From: a phage
Direction: 5' to 3' (one strand)
DNA length: 64,000 nucleotides
Sequence record: PZ154896.1
How positions within the stretch are numbered: position 1 is the stretch's first letter; every line of letters begins with the position of its first letter. Both the position numbers and the translations under genes were made by a program. This document shows positions 20,140 to 40,354 of the stretch, one piece after another. Below the pieces are notes generated by a model, which searched no databases, was not told the origin of the DNA, and saw only the letters and a list, made by a program, of their open reading frames with translations.

Positions 20140-21129
20140 TTATTTATAGTAAGAATTATGATTTTCGAGATAGACTTGTTCAAGGAAGTCATCCCAGAAA
20201 CTCATATCTACTTTTTGTTGCATACCGTTCTTGGCAGCTTGTTCTGACGCATGTTCAACTTGGTCAACGATATCTTCTAGGAATTCTTGTACAGTTTTAA
20301 ACGTATGTTTACCAAGCTTAACATCGAGAATAAATGGAGCATCCTGAAGTGGGTAAACCAGGTCGCCTGTTTTGTAAATTTCCAATAATTGAAGTCCACC
20401 ACGACATGCATGACTCAATGCTTTCCAGTCAATACCTTCGTTAGCTTCTGCCTTACGAGCACGTTCACCATAGTTCTCTTCTAGTTTAACCAGGATGGCA
20501 TTGAACTCTTTATTGGTTAATGTGTCTTGGAATTTACGGTCCAACAGATTATAGAATGTTTGCTTACCTGTTTTCTCGTTTTCGGTTTCAACCCATGAAG
20601 CAAATTCACCTACAGGCAGAACATTCTTCATATGGGATAAACGAATTACTGCACCATTATCAAAGTATTGTCCCCATTCATTAGAACGTTTAAGGGCTTG
20701 ACGAAGAACAGCCAGTCGAGAACCCTTGACACCGTATTTAGAAGCTTGCTTACGGACATACCCTAAATAAGATTTCATGTTAGTGGTATAGAAACGAGAC
20801 CTGTTATCTTGAATATACTTCCATACATCAGGCAAATCAGATTTAACTACTAAACTTGGTGGAGTGTGAAGCATATCTAATGCGACGGTTTCACCATCCG
20901 CAGCTAGTTTAAAGAAATATTTGAGACTATACAACTCATGGTCCACGTCGTCTTTTGTGTTCTTAGAAGATGTGTTATTCGTGTTTTTGCTCATATGTTC
21001 TTTAACGTTACCGGTCAAAATATCACGAGCATGAGGGACATAAATTTCTTTAAAATCAACGTCAGATTCAGGAGTAGACGTTCCATAAAGGTGGCTACCA
21101 AAGTAAGCCTTAACAATCGTTTTCATCAT
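20140..21129 (-). CDS. Pol-beta-superfamily nucleotidyltransferase-fold protein
   Basis: 329 aa; N-terminal GSHLYGTSTPESDVDF matches GS-x(9-13)-DxD NTase motif. Confidence 0.5.
   Translation of the reverse strand: MMKTIVKAYFGSHLYGTSTPESDVDFKEIYVPHARDILTGNVKEHMSKNTNNTSSKNTKDDVDHELYSLKYFFKLAADGETVALDMLHTPPSLVVKSDLPDVWKYIQDNRSRFYTTNMKSYLGYVRKQASKYGVKGSRLAVLRQALKRSNEWGQYFDNGAVIRLSHMKNVLPVGEFASWVETENEKTGKQTFYNLLDRKFQDTLTNKEFNAILVKLEENYGERARKAEANEGIDWKALSHACRGGLQLLEIYKTGDLVYPLQDAPFILDVKLGKHTFKTVQEFLEDIVDQVEHASEQAAKNGMQQKVDMSFWDDFLEQVYLENHNSYYK
20141..20148 (-). promoter_or_regulatory. late promoter (TATAAATA)
   Basis: exact T4 late promoter octamer on minus strand, about 35 nt upstream of the 19827-20108 start. 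Confidence 0.5.
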
Positions 21130-29439: not shown

Positions 29440-30018
29440 TTAATTACCACGGGCTGCATTAGCAACGGCATAAGCGTACTGAACATTAGCGTCTTTAAAC
29501 GTACCTTTAGAGGTATCTATTTCTGCCTTAAAGCCGCCTTTAGCCATAACATCGGCAAATTCTTTACGGAAAGCCATTGCATCAAGACCTTTCCATGATG
29601 ATTTGTGCTTGGCGAATTCAAGACCAGCGTAGTTGACAGCCTTAGCTAATTTATTATCAATAACCCATTTACCGGCTTTAGGCACAAACTTCGGTCCTTT
29701 TTGTTTAGAGAACAGTTTTAAATTCCAGCGACGAAGATCACTGTCGGCTTTAACAAAAGCTGCATCTAAGTTACTAGCAACAACATCTTCAATATGAGCA
29801 AATTTAAGTCCGTCAACTTCAATATTTAGATCGTTACGCCAGCGAAGTCCTTCCCAAGCGAAGGCTTTAAAATCAGAAGCTTTTGTGGCTAGATATCGTT
29901 CAAGTGGAGCAGTTTTAGGGTCAAAGCCGTTTCCGCCACGATAAGTCCACTCGTCCTTATTAATGCCTTGAGCTTTTCCTGCAAAGGCCTCGGCGATAAA
30001 TTCTTTATATGTTTTCAT
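29440..30018 (-). CDS. ipIII: internal protein III-like
   Basis: 192 aa; starts MKTYKEFIAEA; size matches T4 IPIII. Confidence 0.6.
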   Translation of the reverse strand: MKTYKEFIAEAFAGKAQGINKDEWTYRGGNGFDPKTAPLERYLATKASDFKAFAWEGLRWRNDLNIEVDGLKFAHIEDVVASNLDAAFVKADSDLRRWNLKLFSKQKGPKFVPKAGKWVIDNKLAKAVNYAGLEFAKHKSSWKGLDAMAFRKEFADVMAKGGFKAEIDTSKGTFKDANVQYAYAVANAARGN

Positions 30019-30081: not shown

Positions 30082-30342
30082 TTAAGCTTTACCGCCGGAA
30101 ATAATTCCGAAGTTGTTAAAATCGTATCCAATATCGTCAACATCTACTTTAGGGCTTGCTACAACATAAGCAATTTCACTACGTTTTGCATAGGTGTTGA
30201 TTTCTTTACCATCGCCACCTAAGAAAAAATACCCATTACGTTTTAATGAGCCAAAGTCTTCCGCATCACCAATGAAAGCTTTAACTTTAAATTTAGGACC
30301 TTTGGCATCTGCTTCAGCGATAAATTCTTGATACATTTTCAT
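30082..30342 (-). CDS. internal-protein-like capsid-targeted protein
   Basis: 86 aa; starts MKMYQEFIAEA. Confidence 0.6.
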   Translation of the reverse strand: MKMYQEFIAEADAKGPKFKVKAFIGDAEDFGSLKRNGYFFLGGDGKEINTYAKRSEIAYVVASPKVDVDDIGYDFNNFGIISGGKA

Positions 30343-30820: not shown

Positions 30821-31102
30821 CTATTTTTCTGAAGCGCCTGAAATATATTTTTCAAGACGTTGTTTCATCAGCGAGCCGTTCTTAGCGATTTCTTCCGGTT
30901 TATCGCACATACGTAACAAGGCTTCAAGCTTAACGATATCACTGGTGCGCTCAAATTTGCGAGTATCTATCTTACTAGCAAGTTCAGAAATACGTGCTAA
31001 TAGACTTTCAGCTTCAACCAAAGCTGCACCTAGCTTAGTTGCAAATGTGTCAGTAGCTTCGTTAAGAATAGATTCTGATAAAAATTCACTATATGTTTTC
31101 AT
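30821..31102 (-). CDS. internal-protein-like capsid-targeted protein
   Basis: starts [10 protein letters not shown]; ATG overlaps gene e stop (ATGA). Confidence 0.6.
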
Positions 31103-31587
31103 ATATACGCTTTCCAAGTTCCTGTTTTAAATGTTGAGATTACGCGTTTCGCGCGATTAGGTGTCTGACGATACCATTTAGATTGGGCTAGATTTACTGC
31201 CGCTTCGTCCCAACGTTTCTGTTGAAGCATACGAAGAGAATTAGTAAAACCAGCGACGCCTGCTACACCCATTTGGAAGACCATATTGACCAATGCACAT
31301 CGACGAACTGCATCTAAAGAATCATATACCGGTTTAAGTTTAGCATTACCCAAGATTCCGCGTACGGCTTTATCAACGTCTTCATTAAATAACTTTTCGG
31401 CCTCATCAAGGGTAATTGTACCGTTGCATTTACGTCCGATCATTCTGTCAAGTTCAGCTTTAGCTACGGCTAAAGACGGGTTCTTTGTTACTAAATGGCC
31501 TATGCCAATCGTCCAAAAGCCTTCAGTGTCTTTGTATAAAGTCAGTCTAAGACCTTCGTCATTACGAAGCATTTCAAATATATTCAT
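31099..31587 (-). CDS. e: endolysin (T4 lysozyme)
   Basis: start MNIFEMLR; catalytic region ...DEGLRL.IYKDTEG...TIGIGHL; 162 aa. Confidence 0.92.
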
Positions 31588-31621: not shown

Positions 31622-32080
31622 TTATAGAAGGGTAGTGAGCACCTTATATAATGATTTGCCCATTACATATTCCCATTGAGAAGGTTTAATTAAAGCGAAT
31701 GCATCAAATTCAGGAATCTGTCGTCCGTCTGGGAACGTATGATAGGAATTACAAACACTGTTTCTGAATTGCTCGTGCTCTACAGGGATGGTATATAGGA
31801 ACAGATGAATATTCTTATTGTCTGAGTAATGATGTTCACCTAGGTCTTTCAGGAAGGCAGGGTCATATTGTGTAAACCCAGTTTCTTCTTCGCATTCACG
31901 AATAGCTGCTTCAATAGGAGATTCACCGGGCTCGACACGACCTTTAGGAATATCCCACCGATGAGCTAAAGAACCTTTAGGACGAGAACCAGTTACACGG
32001 CCCATGAATAACTCTTTATCTTTTGTCATGAAGATAATACCAGCTGATAGCTCTTTCACTTTATTTTTCTTACTCATCAT
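31622..32080 (-). CDS. nudE: Nudix hydrolase
   Basis: Nudix box GRVEPGESPIEAAIRECEEETGF; start taken at MMSKKNK. Confidence 0.75.
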   Translation of the reverse strand: MMSKKNKVKELSAGIIFMTKDKELFMGRVTGSRPKGSLAHRWDIPKGRVEPGESPIEAAIRECEEETGFTQYDPAFLKDLGEHHYSDNKNIHLFLYTIPVEHEQFRNSVCNSYHTFPDGRQIPEFDAFALIKPSQWEYVMGKSLYKVLTTLL

Positions 32081-32568
32081 CTCAAATTCCTGCATTCGGT
32101 AATAAAACGTTCAACTTCATTATTCTTGGCTTTTATCTTGTCTTTATGTTCTTGTAAACTACTTTTAATAAGATTAATAATGATGGCGGCGGTACCGCCG
32201 CCAATGATGCCACCAACAACACTTATGATACTAGATGCTAATAAGATAGCAATAATATCAACAAAACCGAAAGAACTCACCTTAGTACTGAAAAACCATA
32301 TAGACGGTACAAATATAATCCATCCTGTTATCCATTGGCACTTATTGAAAAACCTTTCAAGCTCAGCTTGAGTTGTTCGTATTACTTCATCGATAGGTTG
32401 ATATCCATTAATGTATCTGTTCACGATAATACCTGCTGGCTGGTCGATTTTAAATTCTTGGCAAATATTTTTCACTAAGTAGGATGGACATCCTGTCCAA
32501 TCTACTGAATAGTATGAAATACCTTCATTGCCATCGTCTATATTAGACCAATATGTTTTGTTAATCAT
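32077..32568 (-). CDS. membrane protein with C-terminal ERFITECR tail (FIKECR family)
   Basis: 163 aa; hydrophobic segments; conserved C-terminal tail. Confidence 0.5.
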   Translation of the reverse strand: MINKTYWSNIDDGNEGISYYSVDWTGCPSYLVKNICQEFKIDQPAGIIVNRYINGYQPIDEVIRTTQAELERFFNKCQWITGWIIFVPSIWFFSTKVSSFGFVDIIAILLASSIISVVGGIIGGGTAAIIINLIKSSLQEHKDKIKAKNNEVERFITECRNLR

Positions 32569-33254
32569 TACCAGCCTTCCATAGGAAATTCCAGATAAAC
32601 TTGAGCATTGACACGAATTTCATTGGTAATCTTTTTAACTCGGTCTGTATTACGAGATACACGTCCGAACCAACGCCATCCATTACTAATTGCACGAGAA
32701 CCAGTGTGCCATGTTTGCCAATCAAACTGAAGAAGAGTACGATCTGGAGCTTCCCATTTCTCTAGTTCACCTTTTTCAATTTTTTCGAGGACTTCTTTGT
32801 GCCACTGGCGATAGATAAGTTCGCCATCAGGAATCTGACTGAACTCTGCAGTTCCTGTTGCAAAATGAGTAGGACACACATCAGCGTTAACAAGACCAAG
32901 AATATGTTCAGAATAGTAACGAGGGTTGTCATAATCAGGTTGTCCTGCAGTAATAAAGTGTTGACCAACTGGAATATCAGGGCGTGGTACGTCATCATGG
33001 TGATATCCAGGAATAGCAGGATACCAACCAGGCATCAGCATGTGAACTCGTGAATCAAATACTACATCCGAGTCTTTCCAATCGTCAGGAAGATTTTGGA
33101 TAAAGCTACGAGTAATTGGGCCGCCATTATCAAAAGCAAAATTCAAATCGCAGTTAAAAAACATAGGCTCGTTTTTAATCTGGTCGTTTTTAATCGCATG
33201 AGCAAAACCACCTACTGCACGAGCTTGACTATTAAACACTTTAGAACTATTCAT
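32568..33254 (-). CDS. hypothetical protein
   Basis: 228 aa; Trp/His-rich. Confidence 0.5.
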   Translation of the reverse strand: MNSSKVFNSQARAVGGFAHAIKNDQIKNEPMFFNCDLNFAFDNGGPITRSFIQNLPDDWKDSDVVFDSRVHMLMPGWYPAIPGYHHDDVPRPDIPVGQHFITAGQPDYDNPRYYSEHILGLVNADVCPTHFATGTAEFSQIPDGELIYRQWHKEVLEKIEKGELEKWEAPDRTLLQFDWQTWHTGSRAISNGWRWFGRVSRNTDRVKKITNEIRVNAQVYLEFPMEGW

Positions 33255-33255
33255 A

Positions 33256-33561
33256 TTATTTTCCTCGACATTCTTTAATGAAATTTTCTAGATTGGTAGA
33301 TTCAATAGCTTTTTTACGAGCTTCCGCGTGTTCTTCTTCAGACAATTTACATTTATAATTGACCCAGACATTATGGTCAAAACTAGTCGTGGCATATAAT
33401 AACAATGCTCCAACGAATAGCAAAAACGGTGATAAGAATACAAAACCAGGAACACCATCCATATCGTAAGCCTTTTGTAATACTGCAACAGAAAGGGCTG
33501 CGTAAAAAGGTGATGCAAATATTGTTAAAAGACCAATTCGGTTGGTTTCGCCTAATTTCAT
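33256..33561 (-). CDS. membrane protein with C-terminal ENFIKECR tail
   Basis: 101 aa; two hydrophobic segments; tail ...LENFIKECRGK. Confidence 0.5.
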   Translation of the reverse strand: MKLGETNRIGLLTIFASPFYAALSVAVLQKAYDMDGVPGFVFLSPFLLFVGALLLYATTSFDHNVWVNYKCKLSEEEHAEARKKAIESTNLENFIKECRGK

Positions 33562-33632: not shown

Positions 33633-34589
33633 TTATTTGAAAGGTTTTACCATATGGAAATTTTGTTTGAAACGTTTGACGTAATCATCATGTCCTAAGC
33701 TTTGGTACATACTTACTACTTTGCTGTAGTTTTCCCAGGCATACTCACGGAACCAACCAGAGGTGATGCTTGTACAGACTTTTTCTAATGCCATCATAAA
33801 ACTGGCTTCAGGGTTAATTTTAAAGTCATTAGGAATCTGAGAACGTTCTAATGCTAGTACACATGATTCTTCGTATACACCGGCCAATTTGACCATTTCT
33901 GGTAATGATTCGAACTTCTCACGTGAGGTCATGACTTCAGAACCGTCTTTCATATAAAATGTATACGCTGGACGGTCTGTTAGTGCAATGGCTTCATGAA
34001 TAGTATCATGGTCATATGTATAGATATCATCTTTAAAGAACGCACTTTTAGAAGTGTCAAGAACCGGGTGAGCATAGTTCAAGGTTTCTTTCTGGCGTTT
34101 CAGCATAATTTCAGTAAGTTCATCGTTCAGTGTAACACCTTTACCACGAAGATACTGAATATGGTTCATAGTCTTTAAAAAGAACGGATTATTTTTCTTG
34201 AAACGATGAGACATCTTAATTGCAAGACATATCTCAGGAGTTGCCCAGTAAAACCCATTCAAACGGTCTTTAGACAAATGTTTCTTGGCGTATTTTAAAA
34301 GGTCATAAGAAGACGTGAAATCTTCAGGAGTGAGTTCACCGACTAATTCACGGACATTAGTGATTGCCGGAACAATATACGCTTCAAAATGAGTTTCGCG
34401 TCCATTATGGAAGCATTTGAAAACTTGGACATCAGGGTTATCTTGATGAACATATACACCCATCATTTGATTTTTGAATGTATTCCAAGAACCTTGGTCT
34501 GCAATAAAGTCCCAGTCACTATTTTTGATAGCGTTAGAATCAATAAGACCATGATAGTGAAGTGCACGAGAACCAATAACTAACATCAT
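33633..34589 (-). CDS. nucleotidyltransferase-fold protein (putative)
   Basis: 318 aa; N-terminal IGSRALHYHGLIDSNAIKNSDWDF fits GS...DxD motif. Confidence 0.4.
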   Translation of the reverse strand: MMLVIGSRALHYHGLIDSNAIKNSDWDFIADQGSWNTFKNQMMGVYVHQDNPDVQVFKCFHNGRETHFEAYIVPAITNVRELVGELTPEDFTSSYDLLKYAKKHLSKDRLNGFYWATPEICLAIKMSHRFKKNNPFFLKTMNHIQYLRGKGVTLNDELTEIMLKRQKETLNYAHPVLDTSKSAFFKDDIYTYDHDTIHEAIALTDRPAYTFYMKDGSEVMTSREKFESLPEMVKLAGVYEESCVLALERSQIPNDFKINPEASFMMALEKVCTSITSGWFREYAWENYSKVVSMYQSLGHDDYVKRFKQNFHMVKPFK

Positions 34590-34617: not shown

Positions 34618-34857
34618 TTAAATTTCACGACATGCGATATCATATTCATCCCAGAGGTCATCGTGTGAAGCCTCTACCAATGGAACGATTGTACCATTTA
34701 TGTCTTCATTATAAGGGCAAATTGTACAGTGCGCATCTTCGAATCGAATGCCTTTGTGTTCAGATTTTTTATAACGCATATCGAATATCTTTGCAAACTT
34801 TTCACGAGTAATGGTTTTAGCAACCACTTCGGTTCCAACACTTTCGTAATAAATCAT
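34618..34857 (-). CDS. hypothetical Cys-containing protein
   Basis: 79-aa ORF. Confidence 0.45.
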   Translation of the reverse strand: MIYYESVGTEVVAKTITREKFAKIFDMRYKKSEHKGIRFEDAHCTICPYNEDINGTIVPLVEASHDDLWDEYDIACREI

Positions 34858-34875: not shown

Positions 34876-34915
34876 TGATAGGACTACTATAACATAGCCC
34901 TATCTTGTTGTAAAC
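34876..34915 (-). promoter_or_regulatory. PeSL-like early promoter cassette
   Basis: rc: GTTTAC, inverted repeat GATAGGGCTA/TAGTCCTATC. Confidence 0.55.
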
Positions 34916-34919
34916 TGTT

Positions 34920-35117
34920 TTAGCAAGAATAACTAGATGATACCCAGCCTTGAACAGTAATACTATTATTTGATACCGAGATCGCGTTCTGGAGATTCAG
35001 ACCTGCGTTATCTTCAATCCATAATGTAACTTCTTCGCGTTCTTCTGTTGCAATTTGGAACAGGTTTTCCAGGGCAGCTACTGCCGTACGTACAGCACAA
35101 TCTAATTCACGAGACAT
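34920..35117 (-). CDS. small protein, WxSSxxC-tail family member 1
   Basis: 65 aa; ends ...GWVSSSYSC. Confidence 0.5.
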   Translation of the reverse strand: MSRELDCAVRTAVAALENLFQIATEEREEVTLWIEDNAGLNLQNAISVSNNSITVQGWVSSSYSC

Positions 35118-35126
35118 ATGATTTCC

Positions 35127-35399
35127 TTAGCAAGTGTGAGAAGATGCAATCCAACCACCAGTTTCGAGGCTCAGATTGTAGTCGTATTGGTAAACGTCAG
35201 CCCATTCAGCATAGCCGTTTTTTGTACAACGTTCAAGATCGGCTTTAAGATGTCCGGGTGAATGATAGGTTCCACCCATACCATAAGCTGGACACAAGTC
35301 GAATGTTGTGTTTTGTTTATCAGCAATTTCTTTGGCAGCCTCAATAGCTGCATAGATTTTTGCTACAGCTTCAGCCAGTTCGGTTTGTTCTTTAGACAT
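35127..35399 (-). CDS. small protein, WxSSxxC-tail family member 2
   Basis: 90 aa; ends ...GGWIASSHTC. Confidence 0.5.
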   Translation of the reverse strand: MSKEQTELAEAVAKIYAAIEAAKEIADKQNTTFDLCPAYGMGGTYHSPGHLKADLERCTKNGYAEWADVYQYDYNLSLETGGWIASSHTC

Positions 35400-35408
35400 A
35401 GTGATTCC

Positions 35409-35714
35409 TTAGCACAACGCAGAAGACGAAACCCAAGCACCTTCAGTAATAACGTAACCATTACCTTCACGCTTAACATCGCCACCATTATTTTCAATTT
35501 CATTTTTCATCCACTGGGATACGATTTCACCCTTAGGATAATAAGTACGACCGCTACCATAATCACCTACAGAAAATGATACGGCGTATTGGTCTGCGAT
35601 CTTTGTTGCTTCTTCTTCGATACGTTCAGCTTGATTCAGAAGTTTATAAATTGCATCTGAAGCGGATTTGGCATCATTAAACTCTGGTACTTTAATTTCA
35701 ATAATCTTACTCAT
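35409..35714 (-). CDS. small protein, WxSSxxC-tail family member 3
   Basis: 101 aa; ends ...GAWVSSSALC. Confidence 0.5.
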   Translation of the reverse strand: MSKIIEIKVPEFNDAKSASDAIYKLLNQAERIEEEATKIADQYAVSFSVGDYGSGRTYYPKGEIVSQWMKNEIENNGGDVKREGNGYVITEGAWVSSSALC

Positions 35715-36070
35715 TTTCTACATTCCTTAATAAAGTTTTCTATTGTTTCATTTTCACGTCTAGCTAGGAGTTCATTATAACTAATCATTTGAGAAGCGTA
35801 AACCTTTTTATTTTTCTTGTTATGGTTTATAAAATCGTAGTAAAAATAGACTACAGTACAAAATGATGCGATGGATGCAAAGGCTTGGGTATACCGTAAG
35901 TCCTGCCATTGGTCTGTGAATCCACCAGTGTTCCCTATAAATCCTAACACAACGCCGTCAATAAGAAATCCAACTAATCCAAAGGCAAATCCCATGCCAA
36001 TACTCATAATAAAAATTAGAATGTTCTCACCAAGAGAAGGCCATACGGTTAAGAGTTGAGGCTTTTGCAT
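35711..36070 (-). CDS. membrane protein with C-terminal ENFIKECRK tail
   Basis: 119 aa; hydrophobic segments; stop overlaps next start (ATGA). Confidence 0.5.
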   Translation of the reverse strand: MQKPQLLTVWPSLGENILIFIMSIGMGFAFGLVGFLIDGVVLGFIGNTGGFTDQWQDLRYTQAFASIASFCTVVYFYYDFINHNKKNKKVYASQMISYNELLARRENETIENFIKECRK

Positions 36071-36444
36071 CTTATTTCCTTAACGAATTCCATAGCTTCT
36101 TCATATTCATACTTTTTAACAGCTTCATCATACTGAGCTTGGGCTTTTGCGCACTGAACTTTCCATTCTCTTAATCGGGCTCTGTGATGACGTCCTTGGT
36201 ACCAATATCCCACCCAGTTAATAGGCATTAATAAAAATGGTACAATAAACGACCCGGCTATAATAAGTAAAAACACTGCATCAGACGATATAACTTCACT
36301 AGAATCTAAAACAGCTCCTATAATCATAAAGATTAAAAATGCTAAAGCTAAAATAGGGCCAAATAGTACTTCATTTGGGATTAATTTACGCTTGTATTCG
36401 TATGCCCAGGGCTTAATTGGCATGTACAGGGTTGGCTTTGACAT
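36049..36444 (-). CDS. membrane protein with EFVKEIRCK tail variant
   Basis: start set at MSKPTLY; two TM-like segments. Confidence 0.45.
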   Translation of the reverse strand: MSKPTLYMPIKPWAYEYKRKLIPNEVLFGPILALAFLIFMIIGAVLDSSEVISSDAVFLLIIAGSFIVPFLLMPINWVGYWYQGRHHRARLREWKVQCAKAQAQYDEAVKKYEYEEAMEFVKEIRCKSLNS

Positions 36445-37009
36445 ATTCTCTACATTCCATAATAAATTGCTCAAGGATTAAATTGTTAGTGAAATTAGGA
36501 CTAACAACCATGGTTTCATAAAGCGCATCAATAGCACTTAAAGCATCAACTCTTTTAAGCAAAGGCTTGCCTTCATACATAGTTTCAGAATCGACGATTA
36601 ACGTAAAGTAATATTTTTTATTATCGACTAGAACTTCAGTATCGATATAAAACATGTTAGACCTTAAGAGCTTATCTCTAAAACCATAATAATCTTCAGA
36701 GCGTTCGCTGATATATTCCCATTCAGTGTTTAAACAACAAACAGACCATGTAGGAGCAACGAAATCAGTGAATCTAATATCATGGTCTGCAACTAGTTTA
36801 GCAATAGCTCCGATATCATGAATCATAATACCTGGGGCTAATAAAGATTTTCGGTTATTTGCATATTCAGTTGTCTCATAAGAAGACGACCAGTACCATT
36901 TACGTCCAGTTGCAACATATCGTAATGAATCAACTAAAGACGTAGGTGGATTTACCTTATTTCGGAACTCTTCGAACATTGAGTCAATATCATTATTTTG
37001 GTTTCGCAT
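36413..37009 (-). CDS. hypothetical protein with FIMECR motif near C-terminus
   Basis: about 198 aa from MRNQNND. Confidence 0.45.
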   Translation of the reverse strand: MRNQNNDIDSMFEEFRNKVNPPTSLVDSLRYVATGRKWYWSSSYETTEYANNRKSLLAPGIMIHDIGAIAKLVADHDIRFTDFVAPTWSVCCLNTEWEYISERSEDYYGFRDKLLRSNMFYIDTEVLVDNKKYYFTLIVDSETMYEGKPLLKRVDALSAIDALYETMVVSPNFTNNLILEQFIMECREYVKANPVHAN

Positions 37010-37058
37010 GTTAACTCCTTTATTATCCAAAAGGAGGACCTGAGTCCTCCGTATTATT

Positions 37059-40199: not shown

Positions 40200-40276
<77 letters not shown>

Positions 40277-40279
40277 GAT

Positions 40280-40354
40280 TGGTGACCCTGGCTGGTTTCG
40301 ATCCAGCTACCTATCAGTTATGAGCTGACAGCTCTCCCATTGAGCTACAGGGCC
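40280..40354 (-). tRNA. tRNA-Met/Ile (anticodon CAT)
   Basis: hand-folded cloverleaf: acceptor GGCCCTG/CAGGGTC, D-arm GCTCAATGGGAGAGC, anticodon loop CTCATAA, encoded CCA; 3 nt from tRNA-Arg. Confidence 0.7.

What the first reader, a model, noticed from the sequence alone, without database searches (positions are those of the whole stretch)
33633..34589. Second putative nucleotidyltransferase-fold protein in the e-tRNA block
The 318-aa ORF starts MMLVIGSRALHYHGLIDSNAIKNSDWDFIAD, again fitting GS...DxD spacing, but with a different downstream sequence from the 20140-21129 protein. Two unrelated NTase-like genes in the accessory regions is unusual and worth resolving.
Basis: inference. Interest (0 to 1): 0.5.

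Follow-up and report, generated by a model that had tools for sequence, protein, structure and literature searches.

The report
Phage nucleotidyltransferase with cysteine-tailed partner proteins
The ORF is a real, probably active nucleotidyltransferase-fold enzyme of a large phage-only family, and almost everywhere it is encoded just after one to six small acidic proteins that all end in Trp-x-x-Ser-Ser-(x-x)-Cys, an undescribed gene module that can be tested in the lab.

Summary

No known NTase profile detects the protein by sequence; it matches only Pfam DUF7277+DUF7275 and PHROG 2141. Residues ~170-318 form a helical region with no solved-structure match and many invariant charged residues. 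The family is essentially phage-only (about 1,600 clusters at 50% identity). The tRNA neighbourhood is local synteny, with tRNAs within 10 kb in only 2 of 55 divergent loci.

The new result is a partner family. One to six small acidic proteins ending in W-x-[SAP]-S-S-(x-x)-C lie just upstream on the same strand in 26 of 33 lineages (odds ratio 205), and the link holds in reverse in 27 of 28 informative loci. The window has three such genes, at 34920-35714.

My best guess is that the enzyme nucleotidylylates these tails. A MenAT1-like enzyme/inhibitor pair is the main rival. The other NTase (20140-21129) is an ordinary RlaP/nrdC.11-type enzyme.

The parts
33633..34589 (-). 318-aa NTase-fold protein (Pfam DUF7277 + DUF7275; PHROG 2141), stop codon included
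34254..34589 (-). N-terminal alpha/beta NTase core (aa 1-112). Carries G6-S7 (34569-34574), D25xD27 (34509-34517) and E69 (34383-34385)
   Evidence: Secondary structure; conservation of 98-100% in 150 representatives; coordinates verified
33636..34253 (-). Helical C-terminal part (aa 113-318; Pfam DUF7275 covers aa 120-305). The first helices (K125, H128, K139) resemble the helical lobe of MenT-type NTases. The rest has no solved-structure match and carries the 100%-conserved residues H194 D195 H198, E240 E241, E248 R249, S277 G278 and R281
34920..35117 (-). Small acidic partner protein 3 (65 aa, PHROG 4882), ends ...GWVSSSYSC
35127..35399 (-). Small acidic partner protein 2 (90 aa, PHROG 899), has the YGMGG core, ends ...GGWIASSHTC
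35409..35714 (-). Small acidic partner protein 1 (101 aa, PHROG 899), ends ...GAWVSSSALC
34618..34857 (-). 79-aa ORF (PHROG 3723, contains CTIC) inserted between the small genes and the NTase gene. It did not recur as a neighbour across lineages, so it is probably not a core part of the module
   Evidence: it is not among the recurrent neighbour families
34886..34914 (-). Promoter-like site (TTTACA-17-TATAGT with an upstream TG) between small gene 3 and the 79-aa ORF
   Evidence: Consensus scan only; not evidence of function
35774..35802 (-). Promoter-like site (TTTACG-17-TATAAT) about 60 nt upstream of the first small gene
   Evidence: Consensus scan only

Best explanation
The ORF encodes a catalytically competent minimal Pol-beta-fold nucleotidyltransferase. 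Its closest structural relatives are MenT1, ANT(2'') and LnuA. The core is fused to a family-specific, highly conserved helical domain. The enzyme works as a module with the small acidic proteins encoded directly upstream, three of them in this window. Those proteins share an N-terminal helix and an invariant end, W-x-[S/A/P]-S-S-(x-x)-Cys-COOH. Proposed mechanism, which is inference: the helical domain docks the conserved tail, and the NTase site transfers an NMP from an NTP to a Ser hydroxyl of the tail. This would modify a set of diversified small phage effector or carrier proteins early in infection. What is shown: the fold, the conserved catalytic residues, phage-only distribution, and a tight two-way gene linkage. 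What is inferred: that the tails are the acceptor substrate, which nucleotide is used, and the biological role.
Against: There is no direct evidence that the tails are modified. Seven of 33 lineages, including Gordonia phage ClubL, Vibrio phage PVA23 and DSS3_VP1, keep the enzyme with no detectable tail protein nearby. The closest structural relative, MenT1, acts on tRNA and is blocked by a small protein encoded upstream, which fits the rival explanation. The window's protein has His at position 143, where 90% of the family has Asp; this may correspond to the fourth catalytic Asp of MenT toxins. The enrichment statistic counts related loci, so its p-value overstates independence; the count of lineages is the safer number.
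Confidence: 0.4

Rival explanations
1. A MenAT1-like enzyme/inhibitor (toxin-antitoxin-like) pair. The NTase adds nucleotides to RNA 3' ends, for example tRNA acceptor stems, for host shut-off or RNA-end repair. The small upstream proteins bind it through helix and tail and block or time its activity, with the C-terminal Cys thiol and carboxylate perhaps chelating the active-site metals.
Against: There is no match to the DUF1814/AbiEii profile or to any PADLOC model. One inhibitor would be enough, yet loci carry up to 6 divergent paralogues. Invariant Ser-Ser and a terminal Cys look more like a site of chemistry than a mere binding epitope. Seven lineages have the NTase with no small protein nearby. 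The enzyme is not basic. tRNA genes are not a conserved neighbour.
Confidence: 0.25
2. A small-molecule nucleotidyltransferase of the ANT(2'')/LnuA type. It would inactivate a host- or competitor-made compound or make a nucleotide derivative. The small proteins would be neighbours for regulatory or historical reasons only.
Against: It does not explain the two-way, cross-lineage linkage to the tail proteins or the fusion protein. There is no sequence match to PF10706 or other small-molecule NTase profiles.
Confidence: 0.1
3. The GS...DxD match is fortuitous and the protein is not an NTase.
For: No known NTase sequence profile matches.
Against: A high-confidence model with the NTase fold, and 98-100% conservation of the five motif residues across 150 diverse members.
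Confidence: 0.02

Closest known systems
MenT1 / MenAT1 of Mycobacterium tuberculosis (DUF1814/AbiEii-type NTase toxin with the small antitoxin MenA1)
   Different: No sequence-profile match to DUF1814. This protein has an extra ~150-residue conserved helical region with no PDB match. The upstream proteins are an unrelated family, occur in 1-6 copies and carry an invariant W-x-x-S-S-(x-x)-C end. The module is in lytic phages, not in bacterial toxin-antitoxin loci: only 5 loci were found among 185,579 species genomes, all of them contigs from metagenome-assembled genomes.
ANT(2'')-Ia (AadB) and LnuA antibiotic nucleotidyltransferases; TM1012, JHP933 and 5uvd minimal NTases
   Different: Those proteins are 156-225 aa and lack the large conserved C-terminal domain. 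No sequence match. They have no linked small-protein family.
MntA-HepT and CitX/MdcG (NTase-fold enzymes that modify a protein hydroxyl). This comparison comes from background knowledge and was not tested here.
   Same: They are precedents for the proposed chemistry. MntA poly-adenylylates a Tyr of HepT. CitX and MdcG attach a nucleotide-derived prosthetic group to a Ser of a small acidic carrier protein (~100 aa).
   Different: No detectable sequence relationship: the MntA NCBIfam model gave only a weak match (E 0.058), and that was to the other NTase of the window. The acceptor here would be a C-terminal tail, not a folded site, and there are several acceptors per enzyme.
RlaP (PF10127; T4 nrdC.11-type RNA-ligase-associated NTase), which is the 'first' NTase of the window at 20140-21129
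   Same: The same fold superfamily. Both are common accessory genes of large phages.
   Different: Unrelated in sequence. RlaP is recognised by Pfam and PHROG 388 and has a published predicted role in RNA-end repair. The target matches neither.

Membership tests
Pol-beta-like nucleotidyltransferase fold superfamily | Alpha/beta core with a mixed sheet; structural similarity to solved NTases | tested here: met
Pol-beta-like nucleotidyltransferase fold superfamily | hG[GS] motif, [DE]h[DE]h motif and a third carboxylate on a later strand | tested here: met
   G6-S7, D25-x-D27 and E69 are 98-100% conserved in 150 members at most 50% identical to each other. Their positions in the model fit.
Pol-beta-like nucleotidyltransferase fold superfamily | NMP transfer activity | not testable with these tools
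   Needs an enzyme assay.
MenT / AbiEii (DUF1814, PF08843) | Match to the family profile, including the DUF1814-specific motif IV | tested here: not met
   No PF08843 match for the target or for any of 42 members, even at E up to 5. No PADLOC match.
MenT / AbiEii (DUF1814, PF08843) | Catalytic Lys and a downstream Asp in the helical lobe (MenT1 K137/D152) | tested here: inconclusive
   K125 is 100% conserved. Position 143 is Asp in 90% of the family but His in this protein. The equivalence rests on spacing only, because no residue-level superposition was available.
MenT / AbiEii (DUF1814, PF08843) | Cognate antitoxin and growth-inhibiting tRNA 3'-end extension | not testable with these tools
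   Small genes do lie upstream, but their role is unknown.
ANT(2'')/LnuA-type antibiotic NTases (PF10706) | Match to the family profile | tested here: not met
   No match in Pfam or NCBIfam. The similarity is structural only.
RlaP (PF10127) | Match to the family profile | tested here: not met
   The target has no match. The other NTase (20140-21129) matches at 7e-13, 49 bits against a cut-off of 23.
HD / PDE-type phosphohydrolase (considered for the C-terminal domain because of the motif H128...H194-D195-x-x-H198) | HD-domain helical fold | tested here: not met
Pfam DUF7277 + DUF7275 / PHROG 2141 (uncharacterised phage family) | Profile matches above the curated cut-offs | tested here: met
   DUF7277 at 3e-27 and DUF7275 at 5e-79. 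PHROG 2141 at 4e-150. The same two domains occur in Gordonia, Vibrio and roseophage members.

The most novel reading that the evidence does not exclude
The module is a phage-encoded system for post-translational tailoring, comparable to RiPP biosynthesis (ribosomally made, post-translationally modified peptides). The NTase would activate a tail Ser as an O-nucleotidyl ester. The conserved helical domain (invariant H194-D195-x-x-H198, E240 E241, E248 R249) would then catalyse a second step, such as elimination to dehydroalanine and capture by the terminal Cys thiol to form a thioether ring, or transfer of a nucleotide-linked group. The result would be a family of chemically armed small proteins, a protein modification not known from phages. 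Three observations hint at real chemistry on the W-x-x-S-S-C unit rather than mere binding: some members repeat the unit internally, one contig has a P-loop kinase-like gene in place of the NTase, and a lambda-phosphatase-like gene is nearby in 6 of 33 lineages.
Probability: 0.12. Interest if true: 0.9.

Novelty: new variant of a known kind. Interest (0 to 1): 0.6.

Why it matters
If the link is functional, it assigns a first testable role to a large phage-only family. That family has about 1,600 clusters at 50% identity and occurs in 734 sequenced phages, including T4-like, rV5-like and jumbo phages, yet it is still filed as two DUFs. It would do the same for a second family of unannotated small acidic proteins that has no Pfam entry. 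It would also add either a new protein-directed use of the minimal NTase fold or a phage version of the MenT/MenA logic. Either outcome bears on how large lytic phages take over or evade their hosts. The experiments are simple: co-expression plus mass spectrometry, and a toxicity assay.

Tried and rejected
- tRNA link suggested by the position in the e-tRNA block: rejected. T4 lacks the gene in that block, and only 2 of 55 divergent loci have a tRNA within 10 kb.
- Sequence routes to a known family all failed. Tried: Pfam, NCBIfam and PADLOC on the protein and on 42 members, and PDB sequence and profile searches. Only chance-level matches came back, such as RNase L at E 0.096 and HisJ at 0.002, far below its cut-off.
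- Relatedness of the two NTases of the window: none.
- A second conserved enzyme partner: none is general. A lambda-phosphatase-like metallophosphatase appears in only 6 of 33 lineages. RNR, NAMPT, HNH and DprA-like genes are lineage-level neighbours.
- The 228-aa downstream ORF as a partner: rejected. It is absent from the nearest relative, phi25-307, and unrelated to the similarly placed AV125 gene.
- Bacterial homologues or defence-island context: only 5 loci, all contigs from metagenome-assembled genomes.
- Literature: no paper mentions DUF7275, DUF7277, the PHROG identifiers or the small-protein motifs. The jumbo-phage NTase survey does not list the family.
- A fixed S-x-x-C spacing of the AviCys type: not general, because short tails (W-x-S-S-x-C) coexist with long ones in the same loci.

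Full report
**1. Observation**

The window is a stretch of a T4-like phage genome. Its nearest record is Shigella phage phi25-307 (genus Mosigvirus), where the target protein is 99.7% identical. Nearby genes on the minus strand include lysozyme e, a NudE-type Nudix hydrolase, denV, and two tRNA genes at 40200-40354.

The ORF named in the finding exists. It lies at 33633-34589 on the minus strand, is 318 aa long, starts with ATG preceded by GAGGA, and begins MMLVIGSRALHYHGLIDSNAIKNSDWDFIAD. tblastn finds relatives in 734 of 50,697 phage records.

**2. The protein is an NTase**

No known NTase profile sees the protein by sequence.
- Pfam gives only DUF7277 (aa 2-101, 3e-27) and DUF7275 (aa 120-305, 5e-79).
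- PHROGs gives family 2141, function unknown.
- NCBIfam, PADLOC and the PDB sequence searches give nothing meaningful.
- Scanning 42 members one by one showed no recurring weak match to an NTase family.

Structure prediction settles the question. An AlphaFold2 model built on a 42-sequence alignment has mean pLDDT 92.4 and pTM 0.85. It has an N-terminal alpha/beta unit (strands 2-5, 26-31, 45-47, 54-61 and 64-73; helices 6-12 and 32-41), and the rest is helical.

Foldseek agrees, with 5uvd at E 8e-4 and MenT1 at 2e-3, followed by Cid1, Pol mu, Pol X and OAS1.

A search of 1.84 billion cluster representatives found 1,597 family members at E<=1e-3, nearly all about 300 aa long. In an alignment of 150 of them, each at most 50% identical to the others, conservation is as follows:
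- G6 100%, S7 98%, D25 99%, D27 100%
- position 69 acidic in 99%
- K125 100%, H128 99%

**3. The C-terminal region**

The most conserved residues lie outside the NTase core. H194, D195, H198, E240, E241, E248, R249, S277, G278 and R281 are all 100% conserved.

The reading I keep is this. Roughly residues 113-170 are the usual helical lobe of a minimal NTase. Roughly residues 170-318 are a family-specific domain with no solved relative.

**4. Distribution and context**

The family is essentially confined to phages.
- A scan of one genome for each of 185,579 bacterial and archaeal species found five loci, all on contigs from metagenome-assembled genomes.
- IMG/VR gave 174 relatives, mostly on phage genomes of 100-370 kb.
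- Distant members in Gordonia phage ClubL, Vibrio phage PVA23 and roseophage DSS3_VP1 keep both Pfam domains and the invariant residues.

The tRNA neighbourhood is not a family trait. T4 has no such gene between e and the tRNA cluster, and only 2 of 55 divergent loci have a tRNA within 10 kb.

**5. The partner family**

I clustered all ORFs within 10 kb of 93 homologous loci. One neighbour family recurred across lineages. Its members are small proteins with these features:
- median length 86 aa, median net charge -9, median pI 4.4
- same strand, just upstream of the NTase gene, often in tandem
- an N-terminal amphipathic helix
- often a YGMGGxY core
- an acidic linker
- an end of W-x-[S/A/P]-S-S-x-x-C, or the shorter W-x-[S/P]-S-S-C, with Cys as the last residue

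The numbers behind the link:
- With a strict end motif, 165 of 1,817 ORFs in the 4 kb upstream on the same strand carry it, against 8 of 16,399 elsewhere. The odds ratio is 205 and Fisher p is 5e-156. The loci are related to each other, so the count of lineages is the more honest measure.
- With a relaxed motif, 26 of 33 lineages (target protein under 65% identical) have such genes, with 1-6 copies per locus.
- The nearest copy ends within 150 nt of the NTase start in 14 of 24 lineages.
- In the whole 64-kb window only three ORFs carry the motif, and they are the three tandem genes at 35409-35714, 35127-35399 and 34920-35117. They are joined by TGC-TAA-GGA...ATG junctions.

The link also holds in reverse. 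Thirty-one IMG/VR loci were retrieved from small-protein patterns alone. Of these, 27 carry the NTase gene on the same strand (26 within 1.6 kb downstream), 3 are truncated, and 1 has a P-loop kinase-like gene in its place. Four further places reached from three small proteins all show a DUF7275 gene 0.4-1.5 kb downstream. One database protein, P0358, is a fusion of a small-protein-like N-terminus to the NTase.

The small proteins have no Pfam family. Their PHROGs (899 and 4882) are unannotated, and none of the 120 best of their 346 database homologues has a Pfam domain or an informative name. I found no paper on either family.

**6. Mechanism**

Two things are shown: this is an NTase with an intact active site, and it is tightly and reciprocally linked to a family of cysteine-tailed small acidic proteins.

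The most likely reading, which is inferred, is that the tails are the acceptor. The family-specific domain would bind the invariant W-x-x-S-S...C end, and the NTase site would put an NMP on a Ser hydroxyl. The arguments for this are:
- several divergent paralogues per locus share only the helix and the tail, as substrates of one enzyme do
- the Ser-Ser pair and the terminal Cys are invariant, and S at -3 is 97% conserved though the search pattern did not require it
- the recognition domain is more conserved than the catalytic core
- the enzyme is not basic

I put this at about 0.4.

The main rival, at about 0.25, copies the nearest structural relative. MenT1 extends tRNA 3' ends and is blocked by MenA1, a 68-aa protein encoded just upstream. 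Here the small proteins would be inhibitors or timers of an RNA-directed NTase.

A small-molecule NTase of the ANT/Lnu type is possible (about 0.1) but leaves the linkage unexplained.

A more novel reading is a two-step tailoring reaction on the tail, with activation by nucleotidylylation followed by chemistry in the C-terminal domain. It is not excluded, and I put it at about 0.12.

**7. The other NTase**

The protein at 20140-21129 (minus strand) matches Pfam RlaP (7e-13) and PHROG 388, 'nucleotidyltransferase'. It corresponds to the T4 nrdC.11 type. RlaP is a published RNA-ligase-associated NTase family predicted to restore RNA ends before ligation. It shares no sequence similarity with the target. 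Two NTase-fold genes in a large phage genome is normal.

**8. Verdict**

The value of the finding lies in the gene's context: an undescribed, widespread phage module of a MenT/ANT-like NTase with a novel conserved domain plus cysteine-tailed small acidic proteins. I rate it a new variant of a known kind, with interest 0.6.

Noticed in passing
window 32077-32568, 33256-33561, 35711-36070, 36049-36474, 36413-37030 (all minus strand): Five neighbouring genes end within 1-11 residues of a shared C-terminal motif, (N/E/Q)-F-(I/V)-x-E-(C/I)-R, for example ...ENFIKECRK and ...ENFIKECRGK. Several look like small membrane proteins; one matches PHROG 2203, annotated 'membrane protein'. This could be a paralogous family, or a shared DNA cassette at gene ends that promotes shuffling.
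   Followed up: partly
window 32568-33254 (-) and 32077-32568 (-): A 228-aa ORF (PHROG 1843, no Pfam match, His/Asp-rich) and a 163-aa membrane protein sit where the 99.7%-identical relative phi25-307 has a single 132-aa gene. This is an indel or replacement hotspot just downstream of the NTase gene.
   Followed up: partly
window 34158-34163 (aa 143 of the target): The target and other T4-like members have His (sometimes Thr or Gly) at position 143, where 90% of the family has Asp. By its spacing from K125 this may correspond to the fourth catalytic Asp of MenT toxins.
   Followed up: partly
L107 5974-6779 (IMGVR_UViG_3300033498_000048, 305-kb contig): This is the one informative locus with a tail protein but no NTase nearby. 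The small protein carries three W-x-S-S/D-x-C units. It is followed at once by an AAA_33 P-loop kinase-like ORF (Pfam 1.7e-9), which may be an analogous enzyme in the NTase's place.
   Followed up: partly
L005, L038, L050, L040, L047, L011, L080, L090 (small genes upstream of the NTase homologue): 31 of 228 small proteins, in 7 lineages, repeat the unit internally, for example ...DW(L/Q)SSSCYGE...VW(H/M)SSSC. So the Cys-ended unit can occur twice or three times in one protein.
   Followed up: partly
P0358 (377 aa, metagenomic): A single polypeptide joins a small-protein-like N-terminus (...WDNSGC...QWNSSGGPAC) directly to the NTase. It is either a natural fusion or a lost stop codon.
   Followed up: no
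L005 2540-3283, L052 11198-11977, L053 12543-13286, L094 6367-7146: A lambda-phosphatase-like metallophosphoesterase (GDxHG...GDxxDRG...GNHE) lies within a few kb of the module in 6 of 33 lineages. SIR2, NAMPT/NMNAT-Nudix and RNR genes recur in other lineages.
   Followed up: partly
window 29440-30018, 30082-30342, 30821-31117 (-): Three ORFs start MK(T/M)Y(K/Q/S)EF(I/L)(A/S)E. From memory, this resembles the capsid-targeting sequence of T4 internal proteins (ipII/ipIII region next to e and denV).
   Followed up: no
window 34618-34857 (-): A 79-aa ORF (PHROG 3723) with a CTIC motif, preceded by its own promoter-like site, is inserted between the small genes and the NTase gene. It did not recur as a neighbour across lineages.
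   Followed up: partly
window 40200-40354 (-): Only two tRNA genes are present, Arg-TCT and Met-CAT, where T4 has eight tRNAs plus segB and two small stable RNAs.
   Followed up: no
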